In this document: positions 18,343-49,901 of the stretch, one piece after another
Layout of the letters: every line of letters starts with the position of its first letter
Position numbering within the stretch: the stretch's first letter is position 1
NCBI GenBank assembly: GCA_002245135.1
Contig: NGBS01000873.1
Span: 186,001 to 250,000, forward strand
DNA from: Proteromonas lacertae
Taxonomy: Eukaryota
Length of the DNA stretch: 64,000 bases
Direction: 5' to 3'
Position numbers and translations under genes: made by a program
The notes under the pieces: generated by a model
The model's database searches: none
What the model was told of the DNA's origin: nothing
What the model saw: the letters and a program-made list of their open reading frames with translations, nothing else

Positions 18343-19810
18343 ATGAGTTTTAAAAGAAGATCGTCTTCATCTTCGGAATATACTTGTTTGTTTGAGATTT
18401 TAGAGTTATTTCGATATGAAAATTGCAATGAAGATGATAAAATTAACCATTTTATGAATGTAGTATGATATTTGTTTAATATAATATTAGATTAAAGATT
18501 ATCAGGATAATTATAAAACAGTTTATTCATTATTTTTGCCATATTTAGTAATCTTAGCTAATAGACATCTTAATCTAAATGTCAGAAATAAACTTCAAGA
18601 ATTCCTTATATCTCCAACGAATGGCACTTCAATTCCACAATACAACAATACTGTTTCAAAGTTCATTAAGGATTTACCAGAATTTCAAACAAACCCAAGT
18701 AATGATTTATTTTTGCTACAGTCAAATGAATATTATTTCTCTCATTTGGATCAAATTTGTTATTTTCTACCGTCCTATCAACATAAGAGGTTATTGATTG
18801 GCAATACTATATACTCAACAGACAATCCACTCAGTTCAATATATAAATATTACATATCAATAATAACCTGCTTAATTCTGAATTACACATCAAAGTTACA
18901 ATTATATATTGATTTATATTTAAAAGAAGGAGGTTTAATAGAATGGATTAATTCTTCTTCATCTTCTTCAAATATTCCACTTAAATTAAAAATAATTAAA
19001 GACTTTTTAATTCAATTTATTGTAGGAACATCGACATTAACGCTTCAAGATTATAATAAGATTATTTATATTGATAAACATTGGTCTGGTTGTGAATTTA
19101 TACATATAATATTAATAGCAACGAATATTGTTGTAGATTCAATAATATCAATGGGTTGTGGAATAAATAAAGAATTAATAGACTATGATAATACAAATAT
19201 CCGTTTCATAATCCCATTAGCCAATCAAATTAAAGAAGATTCAAATAAAAGACGTACTAATATTGACCAATCAAGATTCAATGCAGGTAGTAGTATAGAA
19301 TTTACATGGGAAGAAGAAGGATATTCATATCTACAAACATATTGTACTGAATCAGCAGGAATCTTGGATGATATACATAAACTTTTCTTCGTTAAATCAA
19401 TAGACGAAGAAGATGTAAGTGATTATTTTAAAAAGGATAAAACAGATGCAATATATTATATGATAAATAGATATTATGGAATTACTTATGATCATTATTG
19501 CTATCCAGAAATTAATAAAATATTAGATGTAAGAGAGAAGCAGTTTATATATTCATTACTGCCTATTACTCAGCGAATATTTAATAATGATTTATATAGC
19601 AGTTTGAAAGAATGTGTTAATTCTGAGAAGAATATTGCTATTGTTACATTCTTAAGTAGTGAAGCAGTAAGACAATCATTGTTGTTAACTGCAATTACTG
19701 GATTGACTTTATGTAGGAATGTGAAAGGAGATTGTGAGATGAGTAATGGATTAGATAAATCTTGTAATAGAAGTAGTTTAGATGATATGAAAGATGATGA
19801 TGATATGTGA
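18343..19810 (+). CDS. Sestrin (PA26 family)
   Basis: LKEGGLIEWI, WSGCEFIHIILI, FTWEEEGYSYL...AGILDD, YYGITYDHYCYPEINKILD and SEAVRQSLLLTAI all match sestrin blocks. Confidence 0.8.
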
Positions 19811-20035: not shown

Positions 20036-21894
20036 TTAGACTAAAACTGTTAAATTCGGTTTATCAATCGAACAATCACTCAATATGGATTTACCTTGAT
20101 TAGATAAATTGTTTCTACCCATATTAACCTTCTCTAATCTTGATAAACTCTTAATAGAAACTGATAAATACTTTGCTCCTTCATCAGTAATTAAATTAGA
20201 TCCTAAATCAATCTTCACTAAGTCAGGACAGTTTAATAATCCTTTACTTATCACTTTCACACCTTCATTACCAATCTTACAATTGGATAAGTATAAATCA
20301 GTAAGACAAGGAATATCACATAAATGATTTCCAATTAAGATTGCACCTTCATCACCAAATGGATTATCTATATAAATAATAATAATAATATATATACATC
20401 CAATATCCAGTAAACTTAGATCAGGAAACAAATCAAACCTTTCCACCAACATTTTTACACCATTCACTGTTATTTTGTTACTTCCCAAACATAACTTCTC
20501 CGTGTAAGGCATATAATGTGCAGCATTTAATAAATATTTAATACCTTCATCTTCAATAACTTTGAAATATAAATTCCATTCATAATCTTCTTTAATACCT
20601 TTAATTATCTTCAGTTCGGTTGGATTTTGAACTAGCAATTTGCCAGTGATTGTTTCTTTGATTAATGGAGCTTCAAATGCTAATTGGATAATAACCCGAT
20701 AATATTGTTCTTCATTGGATTTGTTATATTCCATTATAAGTTTCTTTTTCAAATCTAATTAATAATAATAATAATATAATATTCAATAAATACCAGAGTT
20801 TTTAGCAATTTCTAAAATAATCAATCTTACACTCTCATAATCCTCTTTAAAGTCATCTAGATCTTTCATCATCTCTTCTACTGTCATTTCTGGATTTTCA
20901 TACTTTCCTAATACTCCCTTTACTGCACTTTCAGGTTCCATTTGTTCAATTAAGAATGACTTTGATTTTTCTTCTTCTAAATCTTCAATTATCAAGTCTA
21001 ATGATATTCTACGATTAACATCGTTGAGTATAAGTAAGTCAATAAGGTCTTTCATATAATTGGGGCAATCTTTTGGCAGTTTTGGATGAGCAGAATTACT
21101 AATTTTTTGATATAATAAACCAATGGTATCTGCTTGGAATAAATTAACACCACCAGTAATAGCGAAGTATAAAATACATCCAAATGACCATAAATCAGTA
21201 ACAACTGTTACTTCTGCATTATTCAAAATTTCAGGTGATGTATAGAATAACGTAGATGCTTTAAGTTTAAACGGACTTTCATAAAACTGATAAATGTTTG
21301 CATCAGTTAATACTAAATGAGATTCAGTATTAGTAGAATCTGACAAAATATTGGCTGGTTTCAAGTTTCCATGAATAAGATCATGCTCATGAAGTGATTT
21401 TAATCCATTTGCAATACATTTAAAATGAGATTTGTATAACTCTTCATTTCCAACAAATGAAGTATTTTTAACTAATAACTCAAAATTACCCTTTTCATAA
21501 TAGGGCATTGTAATGAACAATAGATTTTTTGGTAATAAATAAGTACATTTTGCTGCAATAATTGTTGTATCAATACAAGATTCAATACCATGTTTCTATT
21601 CATAATATTGGCTAATAAATAATGTTATACGAATTTTTCTACTGCTTCATTCCTGGATTTATCAACGTAAATTACTTTCATAACTACTTTATGATTAGAA
21701 GCATCATCAGTGAGGATAGTACATCCATTAGCAAGGTCATACGACATACATTGAACAGTCTAATGATAGAAACATATTAACCATACTGTATAGTGCAAAT
21801 CAGGATCAATTTTTTTCTATAATTTGAATTATAATATTAACAATACAAATGGAAATCCTTTTTCTACAAAAGAATTAGCATCACTGTAATTCAT
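20036..21894 (-). CDS. Kinase-like domain fused to RNI-like leucine-rich repeats (probable pseudokinase)
   Basis: HGNLKPANIL, YTSPEIL and DLWSFGCILY, followed by LRRs (LYLSNCKIGNEGVKVIS, IDLGSNLITDEGAKYLS). Joined by a short intron near 20755-20790. Confidence 0.8.
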
Positions 21895-22068: not shown

Positions 22069-22884
22069 CTACTCTACTATCTGTAATTGGTGGTTAATAA
22101 TTTCTTTATCCAATATTTTACTTAGTTCTTCGTAATCCTTCCAACATACATACTGGCATTTACGAGATTGGTTTTTCTTTATCCTATTATCCAAATTACT
22201 CTCTTTTCTAGCGCACACCTTATCAATGGATCTTAAATGCAAAGATGGACAAACATCATTGTCACCATCTCCAATATAGTATACATGCTGATAACTATTT
22301 ATGTTTAGAGTATCAACAACAGATCCTTTGCATAAGTTACATGGACATAGTTGACAAGCATGAGGTTGCTCCATATTTTGATATGCTGATACATGTAAAA
22401 TGCCATTTGCATCATAGGATCCAGGATTAGTGATAATTCTATCAAACAAATCTGAAATGTTGTTTGCTTTAACAACACATGTTATAAATTCGGTGTTGCA
22501 ATCACTTAATATGATTATCTGACTGTTATTTCGTTTATGTTTTTTTAAAACAGAGATTAACTCTTTGGAAATATGTATTTCTGTTAATAATAAATCAATT
22601 AGACATACTTTTTAACGATTCTTCTATTTTTGATTTAATGATGCCTCTGCGTGCTAATTTGTCAATCAAATCAGCCTATTTTTACATAATATTGCCATTT
22701 ATACAGATATATTTACCCAATTAGTGTGTTTCTCTTGTTCGTACATATATTCAATGAGATCTGGAGCAAGATCTTGTAATACTACTGTGAATGTGTCAAC
22801 AGGGCAAAAAGACCTATAAGGACTATAATAACAATAGGGATACAAATCGAAATCGAATATATATAATCTTGAATAGGTAGACAT
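22069..22884 (-). CDS. PHOSPHO1/PHOSPHO2-type HAD phosphatase
   Basis: YIFDFD motif I, ILSDCNTEFI, IITNP, CQLCPCNLCKG and YIGDGDNDVCP. Confidence 0.85.
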
Positions 22885-23124: not shown

Positions 23125-26100
23125 CTATTGTTCTGGTATGGGTGTTAGTGTATCTATTTTATCTTCTGACTTTCTTTCATTATCTAAATGTTCATCATTA
23201 AATGGTGGTTCAGGTTCTTCATTCTTACTGTGATCAATAACATGAACATCTGGCATAGCATGTGAAGCAACAGATGATGTAACAGCAATTTTACTCACTT
23301 TTCTACGAGATTTCATTCTTAAAGCAACAATAAACACAATAGCAAAAACAGTTACAAACATTCCAACACCTAAAAACAAATATGGTAAACCTTGCACTAT
23401 AGATTTCTTATCTGTTTTACCTCCATCTGCTACATAATTGAATGTATTACTTGATTTACATTTCATTGCATCAACTGTATGATGAAGTAAAGGATAATCA
23501 GCACCATTGAAATATTCATCTTGATCTAAAGCCCAAATCATTAAACCACCAAGATTTTTAGATCGAGCATATTCGATCTTTTCATTCAAACTACGATCAT
23601 TATCATAACTACACCATTGATCATCTTTCTGAATATACATACTTCGACTTATCTCATCATAGGTACTTATTCCACCTTCTTTTAACATCTCACTTATTTC
23701 GAAATAAGCTAAATAACCATCTGTTCGAGTCCATTTTCCAGGTTTTCCAGCACCAATTGCTTCACTTTTATAACCTTGGCCTGATGCTTTACTTTTCAAT
23801 GTCCAACAACGACCAAAGTAACCTAAACCCAAAAATAGTTTTTCACTTGATATTCCACTCGATAAATATAGATTCACAGCATAATCGATTGTGTATTTAT
23901 AATCTAAACTATTCTCATCTAAATCTTTTCGAGCATATAATGCAGTATGGAAATCAGTTTTATCTTCCCAAGCACCATGTAAATCATAACTCATTAAACT
24001 AATATAATCAACATATTTAGGAATTTCTTTCAAATTATAGCCACTTTCGATTTTATCATATCCTATTCCAACTGCTATTGTTAATAACAACTTTGATTTT
24101 CCATATGGAATGGATTCTCGTTCGATTGATTCTCGAGTTTCTTTTAATAATGATACGAAATTTTCTTTATCTTCTGGACGACCACCTTGAACTTCAACAC
24201 CTGGATATTCCCAATCGATATCTACACCATCGAAATTATTATCTCGAGCAAATTTCAATAATGAAGAGATAAATTTAGATCGATTTTCTTTACTTGAAGC
24301 CATATTTGTAAATATATGTTTTGTGTTTTCATAGAGATTGAAGTTCCAACCACCAATAGATATTAAGGTCTTGATTGAAGGATTTTGATTTCGAACATGT
24401 TGATTGAATCGATAGTATAAACCTTGACTTGGATTCCATTCGTTTATATCATTCCATTCAAATGGAATTACTCGATAACTTTTATCTTCTATTACAGCAA
24501 ATGCATAGTTTATATGAGTTAAGCCTTTTGCATTTATATTTTCAGGGAAATATGTATTACTAGGACGATATTGACTCCAGTTTGTATGATATCCCAATAA
24601 TTTTGTAATAGGTTTACATGTTCCATCATCATCAGGATTGGGATTTACAGTTGGATTAACTGTTGGTTTTTCCGTTGGAGGGTTAGTTGGTTTTTCTGTA
24701 GGAAGCGAAGTAGGTGGCGAAGTGGGAGGATTTGTTGGTTTTTCAGTTGGAGCACATGTTGGACAAGATGGACAAGGAGGACAAATACCACAATCCTTTG
24801 GACATGTTGCACAGTTTTCATTTGGATCGCATTTTCCATCTCCACAATATGATTCTGTAGGTGTTGTTGGTTTCGCAGTTGGTTTATCAGTAGGCTTTTC
24901 TGTTGGTTTATCAGTAGGAGGTTGAGTTGGTTTATCTGTAGGAGGTTGAGTTGGTTTTGTTGTTGGTTTTTCAGTAGGCTTATCAGTAGGTTTTTCTGTT
25001 GGTGGTTGTGTTGGCCTATCGGTTGGTTCATCGCATTTTCCACAATCATTTGGACAATTTTCACATGTTTCTCCTTTTGAACAAACACCATCTCCACAAG
25101 TAATACAAGAACCACAATCTTTAGGGCAGGATTCACAATTCTCTTTTGATTGACAAATACCATCTCCACATACTGTTTCAGCTGTTGAACAATCAATTGT
25201 GCCACTACATCTACTATCCCAAGTGTGAGCTATTGAACCATCATAACAGATTGTTCCTGGTGGAGTTGGAGTAGGATCAGTAGGACGACCTGCAACACAA
25301 TAATATAAGAATGGACAACAATTCTTTGGATAACAATGAGTACCATCACTTAAACCTTTACAGTTTGGTTTATCATTTCCTCCACTATTACTATCGTCTA
25401 TTTTGTGACATTCTTTTCCATTTCCGCTATATCCATCTTTACATACACATTGAACATGATTATTTGGAAGTAAACTGCATATAGCATTAACATCACATCC
25501 ACCATTATTTGATAAACATGGATTGGGTCTTTCAGTTGGTTTTGTTGTTGGTATTGTAGTTGGTTTTGTTGTTGGTTTTTCAGTTGGTTTATCTGTAGGT
25601 TTTTCAGTTGGTTTTGTTGTTGGTATTGTAGTTGGTTTTGTTGTTGGTTTTTCAGTTGGTTTATCTGTAGGTTTTTCAGTTGGCTTTGTTGTTGGTATTG
25701 TAGTTGGTTTTTCAGTAGGTTTTGTTGTTGGTTTTTGAGTTGGAGCTATAGTCTGTGGAATTGTAGGAGTTGATGTTGTAGGAGGATTTGTTGGTGCACT
25801 TGTTATTCTACATGGTCCACAATCAGCTTGGCAATTCAAACATGTTTCTCCTTTTGAACAAACACCATCTCCACAAGTAATGCAAGAACCACAATCTTCA
25901 GGACAAGATTTACAATTTTCTGTATCATGACATATTCCATCTCCACATTTGGATGCTGTAGAACATTCATAGTTTGATACACCACAATCAGAAGGATATG
26001 ATATTTGCCCATTTATACATACTGTTCCAGGAGGAGTGGCTGATAAGCCTGATGGGTTTCCATTAGAACAATAGTAGAAGTTTGGACAACAATCCATTGG

Positions 26101-29100
26101 GAAACAATGAATTCCATCACTTAAACCATCACATGTTGCTATTTAAAAATATAATTTTTCAATAATCTAATACGATTTGTTGGAACTATTAAATGACATT
26201 CTTTACCATTTCCTGAATATCCCTCTTCACAAGTACATTGTATAACATCATTGTCTAACAATTTGCATTCTGCATGTTTATCACATCCACCATTATTTGT
26301 TTCACAAGGAGAACCTATAGATATTTATATTCAAAATAAATAAAATACATTCTCCACAATCTTTTGGACATGTATGACAATTCTCATTTGATGAACAAAT
26401 ACCATCACCACAATAAGGACACTTTCCACACTATTGAAATAATAATATACAACAAAATACATCAATCTCACAAGAATTGCAATCTTCTTTTCCATTGCAT
26501 ATCTCATCTCCACATTTCGGTTGTTCATCTACTAATGTAAATGAGTTGTAAATTGCTGAAATTAATGGATATTGTTTCTTGAAATAATCCATATCAATTG
26601 ACCATATTGCTACACCTGATGGTTGATAAGTCTTTATAACTTCTGCTTTCTTTTCAAATGCATATTCATCATCAAAACTATAATATACAAAGATTATATA
26701 TTCAAAAATACGTAATAAATTGATCTTTGCTTTGAATATAACTTGATATTGTATTATTCTCAAATATTCCTTTGTAATTGTTATTCTTTAATAAATCATA
26801 TACTTCATAATAGGCTAAAGTACCTGCAGTTTGTGTATATAATCCTGCATTACCAGGACCTTTTGCAGGAGCATCATAAGATTGATCAGAAGCTGGCGAT
26901 TGTAAAGTCCAAGATCTTCCATAAGTTGCTAAACCAATAACTAATTTATGTCTTGGTAAACCTTGATTTAACCAATAATTAACAGCATAACTATAACATA
27001 ATAAAATTAATTTAAATACTCCACTGTGTATTTTGGATTTGAGCTTTTACTGAATGGATAAACACCAGTATGAGGACCTGTGACACTATCCCAAGCACCA
27101 TGAAAATCGTAAGTCATTACATGAATCCAATCTAAATGTGGATGTAATCTAGGAATATCATATCCTTTTAATATTTTATCTTCACCTGAAGCAGCAGCAA
27201 TTGAGAAAATGATTCTTTCTTTTCCATCTAACAATCTTTCATCATTTATAGCTTGTCTCATTTCTTGCACTAGTTTAACAAAGTTTTCTTTATCTCTTGC
27301 TTTTCCACCTTGTTCTTCATGACCTGGATATTCCCAATCCAATTCTACACCATCAAATCCATGTTGTCTAACAAAATTCATAACAGAAGTAATGAATTTC
27401 TGACGATTTTCATAAGTACTAGCCATATCACCAAAAATATGTTTTGTTCCGCCATTTTCATTGAAATTCCATCCGCCAATGCAAATTGATACTTTACTCT
27501 TTGGATTATAATCATGAATCTTCTTTATTACACGGTAATACATTCCTTGAGTAGCATCCCAATCAACAATATCATTCCATTCAAAAGGAATAACTTGATA
27601 TGACTTGTCACTAATAACAGCAAAAGCATACAAAACGTGAGTGAAATATTCTAAACAGTAGATTATAATAAAATACTTGGATCGATATTCTCTGGGAAGA
27701 AATTACCAATTCCATGTCGATATTGTGCCCAATTTGTATAATAACCGATAATCTTGTTAATTCCCTTCCAATCATTATCTAATGGAGGCGCTGTTGGACA
27801 TTCTCCACAATCTTCTTTACATGTAATGCAATTCTCATCATTATTACACATTCCATCACCACAATATGGACATTTACCACAGTGAAATATGCATTAAGAA
27901 ACCATAAATAAATACATTTTAAAAAATGATATATCTACTTCACAATTACTACAAGTTTCTGTTCCATTACAAACTCCATCACCACATACTGGTCTTGTAG
28001 GTAATTCACATTTTATTCCACTGCATTTACTATCATATGTATGAACAATTTCTCCTTTATAACATAATATTCCTGATAATGTAGTAAGTGATGTTGGTTC
28101 ACCATTAACACAATGATAACTAAAACTATATTGAATGTGATATACTATTGAGGACAACAATCTACTGGCCAACAATACATTCCATCTCCTCTTCCTTCAC
28201 AGTAAGCTATTAATAATAAAAGTAACAATATAAAAGAATACGTTCAGTATAATATTTTTCTTCACATTTTACACCATCACCTTCAAATCCAGGTTTGCAT
28301 GTACAATTAACTGAATTATCTTCATTCAAACTACAATATGCAAACTCACTACAACCACCGTTGTTAATAGTACAAGGATGACATTCTTGTGTATTACATG
28401 GAGTTTCTTTTACTAAAGCAGGACATTTCTCTCCACTACCAATTGGATAAATAAGAATCTCTCTATGATATACTTCTATACCTCCACCACATTCTTTATC
28501 ACATTCTTTAAACAAATACCATTCACCAACAACACAATCAACTTTTATATTTCCTACTCTTAGCTTGGATGTTAATTGCTTAAATCCTGTATATTCATGA
28601 GAATTAGCATTTACAGTATAATATATCGGGAATGGAGATCCAATAGCGAAAGTGAAATCATCTTTATTCTTTGTATCCATCTTTCTAACAATTTTAAAGT
28701 AACTATAGAAATCTTTCTTTTCATTCTCTTTTGAAATGAAATATGAATTAGTTTTTTCTGTTAATTTCTTTGTCTTTCCATCATTTTCGCATTTTTGAGA
28801 ATAAGCTTTCATTTCATTCTGATCAACTTTGATTAAATCACTATTACATTCATCATTTCCTAATGCTATTGAATAAGAATCTGTTGTGAAAGCAATTACC
28901 CCAATTGATATTTCATCATTATTTATAGACCAAAATACTTTCATATTATCACTTGGAGGATTTGAAAATTGATATCCAGGCAGTGTCATATGAGGCAATA
29001 AACCAATTTCAGCAACAATATTTGCATTTTGCAATGCATCTTTAAACATATCATTCTGAATAGCAAATTCTAATCTACTATCTATTTCATTTGCATTTTC

Positions 29101-31452
29101 TGTAATATCAGAAACATGGAAATATATTTCATTATCATTTCTGACTTTCATTAAACTAACATCATTTGATTTAAAACCAATAACAGATGCTAATATTTTT
29201 GAGACTGTATGACAGTTATTTTCATTCAATTTATACTCACTTACGAATTTAAATCCATCATTAACACCATTCACAAATATATCAGCTGGTTCTGTTGTTA
29301 CACTTCCAAAACTGTTTGTAATATGACAATAATAACTACCAATTATTTGTGAACTAGCAATCATTGTTATTGATGGTGTTGAATATCCTAATTTTACATA
29401 ATTTTCATTAACAAAAGGTTTAAAGAACCATTCATATTTCATTGGAGATTGACCTTTAACTACTGGAGCAATAGTAACAATATCATTTGGATTGATATTA
29501 GAAAGAGATTTTGGTTGTTCAATAATCATTGGAAGACATTTATTACCACAATCTACATCTTTCAATCCAGTATAACAATTTGAAAATTGATATAAATCTT
29601 CAATCAATACTTCAGAATACATTAAACATGCTTTATTCCAATTACCAAATTTATTAATTGAATCACTAAAATAGGTTAATGCTTTGCATGTATCTGTTTC
29701 TATACACATTTCATTACATTCTTCTAAGGATTCAGCAAATGGACCTGATTCGTAATGAACTTCATCATATGTATTTTTATCACCAGCTGGAACAGCAAAT
29801 ACTTTTATTTTCTTATCTCCAATTTCATTGTCTGGACCTGGATCTTTACTGATTTGACCTTGGAAATTTGATTTAACAACACTTTCCATTGTTGGACCTC
29901 CAAGTATTTCTTTTTTAGGTAAATATGCTCTAATGACAGCTAATAATAATCTCCAATCATATCTAAAACTAATTTCATTGTTATATTCATTATTCTTATC
30001 ATTACGATGTTCAGCTATCATATTGAATGCTTCATAAGCACTTTCTCTGATTATTGACCAAGGAATTGAATCATAATCACCTTTAACAGAATCATAAGGA
30101 TAACTTTCTTCCAAAATATCTATAAACTTCTCAACAAGTTTCCATGATATTTTATAATCATAAACTTCATTGGCATGATCTAAAGCTAGACAAACTGTGT
30201 TAATATCTTTACTATGGCCACCAAATCCATCTAAATTACAATCTGTAATAGGATCTTTATCAGGTGTACACTATTCATATATATATATATATATATAACA
30301 TACTGATGATAAATCCATATTACCAAATAAACCACGATTGTAAGTATACATGGCTGTAGCAAATTCTAAAGCATCTTTACCTTCACGATCTGTTCTAGAA
30401 TCCCAAGCAGGTCTTAAACCCTAAGAAATATAACAAAATAATGATAATACTTGTTTAGTACACATCATAAAGACATTATGACGAAAATGAAAATCTAAAC
30501 TTGTCATAATAACAGCACGATATGGATTTAAAACCATAAAATCATGGAATTCTCTTAATTCACTATACTTCTGTAAATATTCATTATCAGAAATATAACT
30601 ATATTAATAAATATTATCACAATTAAAATATACGTTGGAGTTCTATCTTTCTTTGGAACACTTTTTGAACCAATATAAAATCGATGTGGCATACATGAAA
30701 TATCAGTACTCATTGCCGGGGTTTCAACTTGGAATATTCCATCTTTATTTCCATCTGTGCACAACCCATCACTATTAAAACAATCAAATTCATCATTCTC
30801 ATTATCAACAATAAAATATGAATTATCATTTTCTTCATAAACAGCGGTAGCAAAACTTTCTTTTGCTGCTAAACCCATCAACATGTGTGGATTTAAACCA
30901 TATTCATCTTGGGCATAACCCATAAACATACCCAACAATTTATCAGGTAATCTGATTCTTACATTTGTCATTGATACAGTTACAACATCATCTGTTCTTC
31001 CAATATACATTTGTGTTAATTCTTCATCAAGACGAGGATGTGCATGGAACATACATGCACGATTATTACCTGCTGAATAGACATCAGGATTATCATAATT
31101 TGGGAAATAATTCATGATATAACGAACTTGATCCATTATTCGATTTGTTTGTAATCCTATTGACCAAGGCATGTGGTTAGTTGGTGTCATGATAAAAGGA
31201 TTATACTGAATTTGACCACCAGTAATCCATGACTTAGTTGAAGCTAAAAGACGGGATTTCTTATTAGATTCATCACACGGTGTTGACTGACATATTCCAT
31301 TACACAGATATGGTTTGTATGGATATTCATTAGATATACACTTCAATTCATTGATATTCATCTTCAAACTATACACAATTATCAAAAGTATCAAAATACA
31401 GCATAATTTTCTGAATAGTAACTGTAGATAACATACTACTGTTGATATTCAT
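23125..31452 (-). CDS. Giant membrane-anchored mosaic glycosidase: lysozyme-like (SLT/GH23) domain, PAN-like, Ig, DOMON-like, TSP1, EGF and Cys-rich repeats, two GH18 chitinase domains, PT-rich mucin stalks, TM helix
   Basis: ORFs 30555-31394, 28210-30114, 27894-28175, 27663-27851, 27007-27633, 26431-26763 and 23125-26097 join via short GT..AG introns at the junctions I checked. GH18 motifs [11 protein letters not shown] and [37 protein letters not shown]. Confidence 0.85.
25523..25740. repeat. Coding tandem repeat with 12-bp base unit and ~72-bp higher-order unit ([24 protein letters not shown])
   Basis: Repeated ttggttttgttgttggtttttcagttggtttatctgtagg, encoding a P/T/K mucin linker. A related array lies at ~24640-25030. 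Confidence 0.9.
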
Positions 31453-31716
31453 GTTACTATATTCATAAATCTTTGAATAACCAATTTCTTTAACCTAAAG
31501 ACAATTTGTTAATTAATAAAGAAAAATCTACTTCATGGGATTTTTTGATGTTGATCAGAAGTAATAATAATAGAAAAAATAAAGACAATATGTGTTTAAT
31601 AAACATAATTATAAAAAAAATAAAATCTATTCTAAAAATGAATTCGTTTTATTTCGTGTTTTTTCTTTAAATCGTGTTTTTTATGTGATCAGCATAAAAT
31701 AAACAAAAAACACTTA

Positions 31717-32488
31717 CTATAAATAAATTAAATTCTTTGAAATTTTCAAAATTGATAAGTCTTCATTCCTTGCTTTTCGATTAATAATTACTTTTGTTTT
31801 TAATCCACATTTTTCTAGCATATTTCTAATATCATCGATCTTGTTTATTTTTTCTACAACAATATAACCTACTCCATTATCTGATAAAATTTTCTATAAT
31901 TTTACACATTATGATAAATAATACACATAGATGAGGTATTACTTTATCTAAGACTTCTCTTCCATTCTTTCCTCCTGCCCACGATGCTGTGATATCTTTC
32001 AAACCAACTTCAGAAGAAGGAGTAGAAACATAAGGAGGATTAAAGATAAAGACATCCACTTTGTTGGATATTTGAGGTAATATATTGTCTAACAAATCGC
32101 AATTTACTACATCATAACAATATAACTACGTATAAAACAAACTATGAATATATAATACATTATTCTGTTTGAAAGTAGATTTTGTTATAGAACATGCATT
32201 TTCATTTATATCTATTGCTATATAATACACAGAGGGTGAGTCTATTTATTGAATTAAACTAGAAATACTCATTACAAGATTAAAACCAGAAGACAAAACA
32301 CCACTCCCACTACCCAATTCTAAAATAAGTGAAATATTATTATTTTCTTTTAGTTTTTCTATATCCTTTTGAAAAGCATCAATCATTAAATAAGAGTCAT
32401 CTGATGGTTCATATCTAATCACAATGGCTATATAATCATACACATTATTAAAATCTTTGTAAGACAAATGCGATAAATCAGGTAGCAT
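31717..32488 (-). CDS. N6AMT1: HemK2/N6AMT1 (Mtq2) methyltransferase
   Basis: VY/EPSDDSYLMIDA, LELGSGSGV, AIDIN, FIFNPPYVSTP, SWAGGKNGREV and RKARNEDLSIL*. Confidence 0.88.
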
Positions 32489-32686
32489 TGAATAAAAATG
32501 AAAAATTAATATTTATTTTGAAAAAAGTGCTTGAGAAAAAGCTTGTAATAATTCATTTTTGTTTTTTTCTGTTGTTATAAGGATTATTATTTGCTATAAA
32601 CACTCAATATTGTTAATTTGTATAAAAATTTGTACATATGGATAATAGATGCACATATAACAAAATTGTCAAACAATAAAAGGAAT

Positions 32687-47299: not shown

Positions 47300-49901
47300 T
47301 TAATAATTAAAACTTAATTTACAGTTATAAATACTTGTAATTTTATCTTGAATTCTTTCTTCCAACTCATTAAATATATCTTCATAAAATAATCTCAGTA
47401 TTTTCATCAACTCACATACTACTTCTAAATTATATGCCAATAAATCAGTAATTATACTATTCAATGTATTTTTTATCATAGACTTATTCTTTTCATTAAT
47501 CAATAACCACTCTTTATATTTATTTCTAACTACTCGGAAATTGTTGTTATTATTCTTATATTCTTTATACCATTCTGGATTATTCCATTTCATTTTATTA
47601 TTTTCATGAATATTTATTGATTTTTCGATTATTTTATGTTGTAATTTTGGTTTGAATAATTCTATCGAGTTTATATCTAATTGTGAATAACTTGGTATAT
47701 CAAACATCTCTTCATTGAATAATTTCTGATCATCCTCATCTTCATCATCTTTTTTCATGATATCTTCTTCTATTTTCCTTCGCTTTAAACTATGTTTTGA
47801 CCATTCTTTTGTCTTATGATGTAATGAAATAGCTGATTTATATTCTTTTCTAATCTCAGGTGGTAATTCATCTAATACATCCATATCAACTTGAGATGGA
47901 GTTATAAAACCATCTTCACCTATCACTCTTTCTCTTTTTGTATTATTATTTTCATTATCATTACCAAAATTATTATTATCGCAATTACCATTATTCTTAA
48001 AGAAACTCTCGACAGATGCATCAGTTATATTATCATCACTTAATTTCGTCATATTTATACCTAAACCTCTTACGTCACTTGGATTACATTTGAATTGTAA
48101 AAATAAATTCTTTACTGCTGGAAAAATTATATTTATATCATCAGTTTTTACTCCTAAAGTGATTGATTTACTATTTATAATTATATAAAACATTTGTATA
48201 TATATATATATATATATACGAATGATTATCACATTGACCATGACCTAAATACTTTGTAGCTTCTGGAGCATTTTCAGATTTCTGTTTCAAATTAATGGTT
48301 ATACATTTTCCTAATAAATTATTCTCTTTTAATCTTTCACATACTTCAGTTGATAACTTTTCAAGGAATTTATTCACTTCATTTAATGTATTAAATCTAA
48401 TACCCCAAGTTACTTGTGCACCAATCGACTGAGGTTTTGTATTACTATTCAATTTCCGATTATCAATGCCTCTCACATGTTGCCATAATGTTTCACCATT
48501 TTTCCTACCTAACCATTGCCATAATCTTGGTTGAGGAATATTTAATAAATCATTGCATGTTTTTACATTATTTTGTTCTAATAATGACAGTGTATGATAT
48601 CCAACTCCAGGTAAGATTGACACTGATTGAGTTCCTATGTATTTATTGTATTCCATTAAGGACATTTCATACTGACCATTTGGTTTAGCTTTCCTTAATG
48701 CAATTCTTGCTAGTAATAAATTCTCACCTATTCCTGCACTTGCTTTACATCCTGTTTCTTTATAAATTCTATCTCGAATTTCACTTGCTATTGAATATGG
48801 ACTATCAAATTCGCTTAAGTCTAATATTGCTTCATCGCAACTTAATGGTTGTACTTTATCTGTATAAGAATAAAATATTTTAAATATTGTTTCAGATGTC
48901 TATATATATATAATTAATATTTCACTAATAATTAAATACTTTTAATATTAAATCAAAATCATATGGTAATACAATCAAGTCTTTACATACTTTCTTTGCT
49001 TCTTCTAACCACATATATCGACTTATTCCTAATTTTCTAGCTATATAATTTGCACAACTAACATCACTGTGCTTTCTATATATATATATATATTAATTTA
49101 TATATACAAATTTGGAGCTGTTGATACTACTACTGGTTTATCTTGATATTCTGGATGTTTTAATAAAGCAACTGATACAAAATAACAATCCATATCTATA
49201 TGACAATAAATTTGATGTATTTCTTCATTATCATTGTATGATGATAACAAATTATCTATTTCCTTATTCTTATTTTCATTCTTATTATCGTTTTTCATTT
49301 TTCGTTTTAAATGAGATTTGAATGTTCCTAAAAAATGTAATCTTGAACCACGGAAGTATTTGTTTATAAAATTTGGATCATCTTTAGCTGATTTAATTTC
49401 ATTTGATAATTTTAAATCACCTTTAGATGTTGTTGAATTAGATTGTGATTTTGTAAATAAGGATTTTTGATTTTCTGTTTTCATTTCACTCAATAAATAA
49501 TTTTCATATGGAATTAATTCGTTTTTATTAATTGAATCGGTTATCCATTCAGGATAGACGTATGGAAGCACTTTAACATAACTTCTATTAAAGAAAATCA
49601 TTTTTCTGTATACAATTCTTCTAATGCTCGAGATTTTGCTATTTTACTAGCAATCACATGAGTAACTTTGCTTCTATCCAGAAAATAACTGAAATTACCA
49701 CCATGAAGAACTATCAACCTCTTCAGCTCTGCATTTCCAGGTATTGTAAAGCCATTTATGTAAATTGTCACATTTTTAAATATTGTAGATATTTGTTGAA
49801 ACCTAAGCTAATAAATCACTTACACAATACCTTAACTCTTCATGCTCTTCAGCAATTCTATCACATTTGTCATAAAAATATTCTTCACGAGTTCTTTTCA
49901 T
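47300..49901 (-). CDS. REV1: REV1 translesion deoxycytidyl transferase (Y-family)
   Basis: N-terminal BRCT (IFKNVTIYINGFT...HGG...VTHVIA), YFRGSRLHFLGTFK, HIDMDCYFVSV, SCDEA, LPGVG, KYLGHGQCD, DVRGLGI and UBM ITPSQVDMDVLDELPPEIR. Confidence 0.92.

What the first reader, a model, noticed from the sequence alone, without database searches (positions are those of the whole stretch)
30180..31200. N-terminal domain carries all three lytic-transglycosylase/GH23 motifs, split across exons
Seen: [21 protein letters not shown] (motif I, catalytic-Glu ES), DGIFQV (GLMQ-like motif II), LNPYRAV (like DPxxN) and [10 protein letters not shown] (AYNxG motif III). The last two lie in exons missing from the ORF track. 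Established: these motifs define the SLT/goose-lysozyme fold, typical of bacteria and phage. Inference: a bacterially derived muramidase or chitinase that has gained introns and fused to a eukaryotic surface protein.
Basis: partly seen in the sequence, partly recalled or inferred. Interest (0 to 1): 0.75.

Follow-up and report, generated by a model that had tools for sequence, protein, structure and literature searches.

The report
Triple chitinase with lysozyme-fold domain
A gene of a protist (likely Blastocystis or a close relative) joins two ordinary chitinase domains to a predicted lysozyme-fold domain that is related to an archaeal chitinase and to the Entamoeba cyst-wall protein Jessie3; the predicted membrane-anchored protein likely cuts chitin rather than bacterial cell walls.

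Summary
The motifs are real. They lie on the minus strand in exons 3-5 of a 15-exon gene (31606-23125; 2671 aa). The ~420-aa domain is not a classical SLT/GH23. It is a homolog of the catalytic domain of archaeal chitinase ChiD (PDB 5xsv; profile E 4.6e-21; a homolog's model aligns at Z 24) and 44% identical to Entamoeba 'Jessie 3a', so it is the cyst-wall 'daub' domain. All four proposed ChiD catalytic residues are intact (E227, D266, E272, H409). Orthologs with daub+GH18+TM occur in Blastocystis-like gut contigs. The eukaryote-type copies form one clade, sister to a rare bacterial group, so this is an old family shared with prokaryotes, not a recent capture. Best reading: a three-catalytic-domain surface chitinase, likely remodelling the cell's own chitin coat. 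Against it: recombinant Jessie3 showed no chitinase activity. The daub-ChiD link (2021) and daub in Blastocystis (2026, 'hypothetical') are in print; I did not find the fusion in print.

The parts
23125..31606 (-). Whole gene model: 15 exons, 14 introns of 26-51 nt, 2671 aa. Predicted signal peptide, ChiD/daub domain, PAN, Ig, DOMON-like, TSP1, EGF, Cys modules, GH18, Cys/EGF/Pro-Thr linkers, GH18, TM, tail. First two exons less certain (an alternative ATG at 31466 was not tested).
29848..31196 (-). ChiD-like / Jessie3 'daub' domain, aa 115-531, over exons 3-6
   Evidence: 44% over 464 aa to Entamoeba nuttalli 'Jessie 3a', E 1e-115
30855..30917 (-). Catalytic helix YAQDEYG...AAKES; E227 (30860-30858) = ChiD Glu532
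30723..30743 (-). DGIFQVE: D266 = ChiD Asp566, E272 = ChiD Glu572; GIFQ is the GxxQ-type motif
30451..30598 (-). Exon 4, with LNPYRAV (not a conserved DPxxN motif)
30304..30420 (-). Exon 5, with YTYNRG (Y378, N379, G381 each in 23 of 23 close homologs)
30214..30216 (-). H409 of GFGGH = ChiD His693 (exon 6)
30599..30633 (-). Intron, 35 nt, GT-AG, phase 2
30421..30450 (-). Intron, 30 nt, GT-AG, phase 0
30271..30303 (-). Intron, 33 nt, GT-AG, phase 0; P0223 has a 7-aa insertion at the same site
28261..29763 (-). PAN, Ig-like (weak), DOMON-like (weak), TSP1-spondin and EGF domains; not present in ortholog P0002
27882..27932 (-). 51-nt AT-AC intron, likely U12 type; holds an in-frame stop and no AG acceptor lies between 27936 and 27835
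26575..27755 (-). GH18 chitinase domain 1 ([11 protein letters not shown]1324 at 27333-27331), three introns inside
23518..24603 (-). GH18 chitinase domain 2 ([11 protein letters not shown]2311 at 24210-24208); 47% identical to domain 1
23317..23391 (-). Predicted transmembrane helix (aa ~2584-2608), then a short tail
   Evidence: hydropathy only

Best explanation
The region encodes a ChiD-type (Jessie3 'daub') domain with all four proposed catalytic residues intact, at the front of a 2671-aa protein that also holds two GH18 chitinase domains and a predicted membrane anchor; it is likely a lysozyme-fold chitin hydrolase that likely helps remodel the protist's own chitin coat or cyst wall. Shown: sequence, splicing fit, homology, residue conservation, architecture. 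Predicted: fold (from a homolog's model and from homology to 5xsv), secretion and anchoring. Inferred: E227 protonates the beta-1,4 GlcNAc bond while D266, E272 and H409 position and activate water. That is hydrolysis as in g-type lysozyme and GH23 chitinases (role assignment recalled), not the single-Glu anhydro chemistry of lytic transglycosylases. Also inferred: the Cys-rich modules hold the chitin fibril, and two unrelated catalytic folds on one tether work together during wall building or hatching.
For: The only significant solved relative by sequence is the chitinase 5xsv (E 1e-5, E 4.6e-21). A model of homolog P0034 (48% identical in the domain, pLDDT 83) aligns to 5xsv at Z 24.1, rmsd 2.8 A over 271 aa (Foldseek E 7e-8). 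The window's own exon-3 model also ranks 5xsv first, weakly (E 4.8e-3, pLDDT 66). The four residues named in PMC8136499 map to E227/D266/E272/H409 and are kept in 35 of 36 ChiD-clade rows and 12 of 17 eukaryote-type rows. Fusion partners point to chitin: 15 of 32 family members scanned carry GH18, CBM5/12, CBM2, CBM49 or ChitinaseA_N (one CBM49 hit below its curated cut-off), and 0 of 32 a LysM, PG-binding, SH3 or SPOR domain. GH18 is also in 4 of 8 further members, in a different domain order in P0221 and P0181. Blastocystis has chitin in its coat and a chitin synthase (PMC5608401). The Entamoeba homolog is about half of cyst-wall protein (PMC2698119).
Against: The only eukaryotic member tested in the papers I read, E. 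histolytica Jessie3 as an MBP fusion, had no chitinase activity, its C-terminal domain did not bind chitin, and it self-aggregated; the authors allow misfolding. The window domain is only 19-24% identical to the ChiD clade. 5 of 17 eukaryote-type rows have lost the catalytic set, so non-enzymatic use exists in this family. No spliced model of the window's own domain was folded and cleft geometry was not measured. The organism is inferred. The Cys modules have no Pfam hit. The wall-remodelling role rests on analogy.
Confidence: 0.55

Rival explanations
1. Structural 'daub': the domain binds or self-assembles in the wall, or cross-links chitin by transglycosylation, while the GH18 domains do the cutting.
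For: Jessie3's C-terminal domain aggregated into sheets and showed no hydrolase activity. Jessie3 is far more abundant in the wall than an enzyme need be. Catalytically dead paralogs exist (P0039, P0182, P0048, P0053, P0050).
Against: E/D/E are kept in 23 of 23 and H in 22 of 23 selected eukaryote-type and sister bacterial rows, Entamoeba included (dead rows had been left out of that set). A membrane-tethered 2671-aa protein is a poor mortar. The negative assay used aggregation-prone MBP fusions.
Confidence: 0.22
2. Feeding or competition enzyme: an active triple chitinase aimed at outside chitin (dietary insect or fungal chitin in the host gut), not the cell's own wall.
For: Prokaryotic members are secreted chitin degraders with CBMs. 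The window copy is expanded to two GH18 domains against one in orthologs.
Against: The eukaryotic relatives with a known location are cyst-wall proteins. The organism's likely group makes chitin itself.
Confidence: 0.15
3. Muramidase or lytic transglycosylase: the domain cuts bacterial peptidoglycan at the protist surface.
For: SLT-like core fold and ES / GxxQ / YNxG motifs. [quoted passage not shown] I saw no peptidoglycan assay for any member in the passages read.
Against: ChiD (Z 24) stands far above SLTs (Z at most 10.7). Extra conserved acids D266/E272 fit a hydrolase. No PG-binding partner in 32 members. In one search the MBP-only control also released much protein, and aggregation alone can explain the damage.
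Confidence: 0.08

Closest known systems
Pc-ChiD / Tc-ChiD catalytic domain (Pyrococcus/Thermococcus chitonophagus; PDB 5xsv, 5xsw, 5xsx)
   Same: Fold (homolog model Z 24.1), AAKE / DGIFQVE / YNRG / GFGGH / RY[DH] motifs, four proposed catalytic residues
   Different: About 22% identity to the ChiD-like P0116; insertions in the eukaryote-type domain; eukaryotic partners, introns and a membrane anchor instead of prokaryotic CBMs
Entamoeba Jessie3 C-terminal 'daub' domain, with Mastigamoeba m51a1_g9092 'putative chitinase', Pelomyxa KAH3731474.1 and Mastigella homologs
   Same: 44% identity over 464 aa to 'Jessie 3a'; same clade; PMC12944779 lists a Blastocystis hypothetical protein with this domain
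   Different: Jessie3 is one 8-Cys chitin-binding domain plus daub. Here daub comes first and is fused to two GH18 domains and a TM helix. A clade of window-type plus Entamoeba rows is rejected (p-AU 5e-5).
GH23 / SLT family (MltE, MltC, Slt70, g-type lysozyme, Ralstonia ChiC)
   Same: Lysozyme-like helical core, catalytic Glu at the end of the first helix, GxxQ and YNxG-like motifs (Z 6.8-10.7 over 124-151 aa, 8-17% identity)
   Different: Domain more than twice as long; no Pfam SLT hit; no conserved DPxxN; extra conserved Asp, Glu and His
Multi-catalytic GH18 chitinases with a TM anchor, including the two 'eukaryotic-type GH18' chitinases reported for Blastocystis ST1/4/7 (PMC5608401)
   Same: GH18 domains with catalytic Glu, Cys-rich modules, Pro/Thr linkers
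   Different: Carries a third, unrelated catalytic fold that the passages read do not mention (0 hits for GH23)

Membership tests
ChiD / Jessie3-daub family | Sequence homology over the whole catalytic domain | tested here: met
   44% over 464 aa to Jessie 3a, E 1e-115; profile to 5xsv E 4.6e-21, two stretches
ChiD / Jessie3-daub family | Glu532, Asp566, Glu572, His693 equivalents | tested here: met
   E227, D266, E272, H409; numbering offset of 319 agrees with chain range 509..804
ChiD / Jessie3-daub family | ChiD fold | tested here: met
   On homolog P0034: Z 24.1, rmsd 2.8, 271 aa. On the window's exon 3 alone only E 4.8e-3.
ChiD / Jessie3-daub family | Chitin hydrolysis | not testable with these tools
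   ChiD is described as a chitinase (PDB title; reviews); Jessie3 assay negative
Jessie3 lectin proper | Single N-terminal 8-Cys chitin-binding domain followed by daub, no GH18 | tested here: not met
   Window N-terminus does not show the Jessie-type Cys pattern of P0004-P0007; two GH18 domains and a TM follow
GH23 / SLT lytic transglycosylases | Lysozyme-like core with catalytic Glu, GxxQ and YNxG motifs | tested here: met
   Z values of 7-11 are middling for helical folds, but 15 or more lysozyme-superfamily chains head the list
GH23 / SLT lytic transglycosylases | Match to the SLT profile (PF01464) | tested here: not met
   No Pfam family at E<=1 for exon 3 ORF; none in NCBIfam for P0001 or P0034; atlas SLT clusters only at 0.82-0.84, a lead
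GH23 / SLT lytic transglycosylases | Conserved DPxxN motif (motif recalled) | tested here: not met
   Pro in 2 of 23, Ala at the Asn position in 23 of 23
GH23 / SLT lytic transglycosylases | Peptidoglycan cleavage with 1,6-anhydro products | not testable with these tools
   needs an assay
GH18 chitinases (two C-terminal domains) | PF00704 match and DxDxE catalytic motif | tested here: met
   E 5e-53 (plus two further exon pieces) and 1e-88; DGVDIDWE canonical, DGVELDWE with one Asp-to-Glu change

The most novel reading that the evidence does not exclude
The daub/ChiD domain is an active lysozyme-fold enzyme that in eukaryotes cuts peptidoglycan as well as chitin. It would arm gut and anaerobic protists (Blastocystis, Entamoeba, other Archamoebae) with a surface or cyst-wall lysin, and the clumping and outer-membrane damage seen when Jessie3 was sent to the E. 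coli periplasm in 2009 would be wall lysis rather than 'mortar'. A milder version, that daub is an old, overlooked second family of eukaryotic chitinases missing from Pfam, I put at about 0.6.
Probability: 0.08. Interest if true: 0.75.

Novelty: new variant of a known kind. Interest (0 to 1): 0.42.

Why it matters
Whether the most abundant Entamoeba cyst-wall domain is an enzyme has been open since 2009. Here the same domain, catalytic residues intact, is fused to GH18 chitinases in a different protist group, and such fusions recur in several domain orders. That favours chitin as substrate and offers better-behaved proteins for a retest. It also suggests that Blastocystis-type gut protists share a wall-remodelling tool with Entamoeba that Pfam-based annotation misses. 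The parts are known, so the surprise is moderate.

Tried and rejected
No whole genome is held. No RNA holder was listed, so splicing and expression were not checked with reads. First gene model was out of frame and was fixed by adding intron 31399-31369. Pfam and NCBIfam gave no family for the domain. Atlas hits were at or under 0.90 and unnamed; a second atlas query on the Cys module did not complete, so 'chitin-binding module' stays an inference. Foldseek matches to SLTs were not significant (E>2); only VIA supported them. Recent Entamoeba-to-Blastocystis transfer: rejected. Recent bacterial capture by this lineage: not supported, since the eukaryote-type rows form one clade. Shared introns with the intron-rich eukaryotic locus L022: none at the window's three positions, by eye. 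The TGTTTGTT motif is only weakly enriched in the window (12 against a shuffle mean of 5.9, max 11 of 30), so it is weak evidence for the organism. A mixed alignment had no usable pattern for a genome scan, so the ChiD-type clade was not surveyed in GTDB. The primary ChiD papers were not held. Earlier scan findings: none. No complex prediction was run.

Full report
Gene. The window is AT-rich (mostly 22-34% GC) and eukaryotic. The finding lies in a minus-strand gene from 31606 to 23125. Fourteen introns of 26-51 nt give 2671 aa with no internal stop. Pfam on seven ORF pieces and hydropathy give: signal peptide, an unannotated domain (aa ~115-531), PAN, weak Ig and DOMON, TSP1, EGF, Cys-rich modules, GH18, linkers, a second GH18, a transmembrane helix and a tail. 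The first two exons are the least certain. No RNA run was listed.

Observation. All quoted peptides are present. The last two lie in 148- and 117-nt exons absent from a 100-aa ORF list. Homologs tile the exons without gaps. P0223, 73% identical over 352 aa, reads through two junctions and has a 7-aa insertion at the third. A loose three-motif pattern occurs in 2 of 2000 shuffles. LNPYRAV is not a conserved motif (Pro in 2 of 23).

Identity. Exon 3 alone hits one solved structure significantly, the archaeal chitinase 5xsv (E 1e-5); the family profile reaches 4.6e-21. PMC8136499 (passages and part 1 of section 13 read) states that the Jessie-3 C-terminal domain corresponds to this catalytic domain and names Glu532, Asp566, Glu572 and His693. 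These map to E227, D266, E272 and H409. The spliced domain is 44% identical over 464 aa to a protein named Jessie 3a of Entamoeba nuttalli. PMC12944779 (passages) reports the daub domain in Pelomyxa KAH3731474.1, which is my P0003, in a Blastocystis sp. protein and in Amoeboaphelidium, all as hypothetical proteins; 'ChiD' does not occur in its main text.

Fold. Only single exons of the window could be folded, so I folded homolog P0034 (48% identical over 326 columns; pLDDT 83). Foldseek: 5xsv E 7e-8; MltE, MltC and Ralstonia ChiC only at E>2. VIA against 48,161 chains: 5xsv Z 24.1 (rmsd 2.8, 271 aa), MltC 10.7, MltE 9.2, Slt70 8.0, g-type lysozyme 7.2, Ra-ChiC 6.8. The window's exon 3 model was poor (pLDDT 66) but ranked 5xsv first (E 4.8e-3). 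Cleft geometry was not measured.

Substrate. Of 32 family members scanned (chosen from the hits), 15 carry GH18 or a chitin/cellulose-type binding module, one of them below its cut-off; none carries a LysM, PG-binding, SH3 or SPOR domain, and one has SLH. Four of 8 further members carry GH18. Orders differ: daub-GH18-TM (P0002, P0032), GH18-GH18-daub (P0221), GH18-CBM-daub in bacterial-type P0181, and GH18 plus ChiD in P0081, P0077 (Vallitalea) and P0099. The catalytic set is complete in 35 of 36 ChiD-clade, 12 of 17 eukaryote-type, 4 of 6 sister bacterial and 0 of 3 intermediate rows. Against activity: in PMC2698119 (passages and section 9) Jessie3 MBP fusions had no chitinase or deacetylase activity, the C-terminal domain did not bind chitin, and it aggregated and often disrupted the E. 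coli outer membrane; the authors allow misfolding or an untested activity.

Organism and orthologs. A metagenome scan gave 16 loci from 246 pattern matches. Thirteen (L009-L021, GC 35-60%) are P0002-type; those examined against the model (L011, L012, L014, L016) show daub, Cys modules and one GH18. L014 shares the neighbouring methyltransferase-like gene at window 31720-32125 (name recalled) and has 29-30-nt introns. PMC5608401 (passages) describes ~30-nt introns, U12 AT-AC introns, chitin in the coat, one chitin synthase and two GH18 chitinases in Blastocystis. I infer Blastocystis or a close relative; no named Blastocystis protein came up in my searches. The window copy is longer than these orthologs: GH18 doubled (47% mutual identity) and a PAN-to-EGF block added.

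Origin. Careful tree of 37 rows, 450 columns, rooted on the ChiD clade: 11 eukaryote-type rows form one clade (95/95), sister to four bacterial-type rows (99/98; joint 100/99), then two unnamed rows. Left out beforehand: 22 near-identical cluster members, 10 permuted rows, fragments under 300 positions, seven long-branch or dead rows, P0005, P0179 and 16 ChiD rows; the 62-row quick tree shows the same eukaryote-type and sister bacterial groups. Labels of unnamed rows are my inference; named ones are Entamoeba, Pelomyxa, Mastigella, Mastigamoeba, a Deltaproteobacteria MAG and a GTDB MAG. Window, P0002, P0032 group together (90/86; 95), outside the Archamoebae (100/99); forcing them with Entamoeba is rejected (p-AU 5e-5). 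The sister bacterial group is rare: one GTDB locus from 30 pattern matches, and 1 strong plus 3 weak matches in 93 genomes of its phylum. P0181's GH18 is closer to the window's (41%) than that of ChiD-clade P0099 (27%), so that group may be a recipient, not a donor. A prokaryotic ultimate origin is plausible; a recent capture by this lineage is not supported.

What is in print. Searches: ChiD+chitonophagus+GH23 (1 paper), Blastocystis+chitinase+lateral gene transfer (27, 8), Jessie+Blastocystis (31, 7), Jessie3/daub/chitinase (32, 20 of 489 listed), Blastocystis+chitinase+GH18 (71, 2), ChiD names (92, 8). I saw listings only, except for the papers named above and short passages of PMC9855744, PMC8615776, PMC11943626 and PMC6545677. 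None of what I read describes the daub+GH18+TM fusion. The primary ChiD papers were not held; roles of individual residues are recalled by analogy with GH23. Supplementary figures S10 (PMC8136499; text search empty) and S2 (PMC12944779, an image, not opened) may bear on novelty.

Verdict. Real feature; fold family rightly guessed; best filed as a ChiD/Jessie3-daub domain within a three-catalytic-domain surface chitinase. New variant of a known kind, interest 0.42.

Noticed in passing
window 27882-27932 (-) and 26431-26460 (-): A 51-nt AT-AC intron, likely U12 type, and a 30-nt GT-AG intron sit at the same phase-0 position of two internally duplicated Cys repeats (CEVD|CGK and CEID|CGK): a likely minor/major intron type switch within one gene.
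   Followed up: partly
P0044 cluster (P0044, P0183, P0186, P0191-P0194, P0196): Circularly permuted daub domain: the GPYQxE / YNGG / RYDW part comes first and the catalytic AAKES helix about 180 aa later; 17 members, unnamed or 'hypothetical'.
   Followed up: partly
P0039, P0182, P0048, P0053, P0050: Eukaryote-type daub paralogs that lost the catalytic residues; candidates for a purely structural daub.
   Followed up: partly
L001:4962-7283, L007, L008 (P0216, P0035, P0181): Rare bacterial MAGs carry the eukaryote-type daub domain with CBMs; P0181 also has a GH18 resembling the eukaryotic ones, so eukaryote-to-bacterium transfer is possible. P0216 has Tyr in place of the His.
   Followed up: partly
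L022:258-2084: Intron-rich eukaryotic daub gene (about nine pyrimidine-rich introns) with positions unlike the window's.
   Followed up: partly
L004, L005:1465-2709, L006: More distant members of the same superfamily (AES, GCFQ, YNGG motifs in L005) in three genomes of the same bacterial phylum as L001.
   Followed up: no
P0038, P0227: Daub fused behind a different, short type of GH18 domain (Pfam hit in P0227 only); fungal/aphelid-like by my impression.
   Followed up: no
window 31720-32500 (-): Neighbouring methyltransferase-like gene (HemK/N6AMT1-like, recalled from its NPPY motif) with a homolog about 5 kb upstream of the ortholog in L014.
   Followed up: partly
window 18491-19810 (+), 22069-22611 (-), 20783-21595 (-), 47300-48244 (-): Ordinary eukaryotic neighbours: sestrin (PA26), putative phosphatase, protein kinase, Y-family polymerase C-terminal part.
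   Followed up: no
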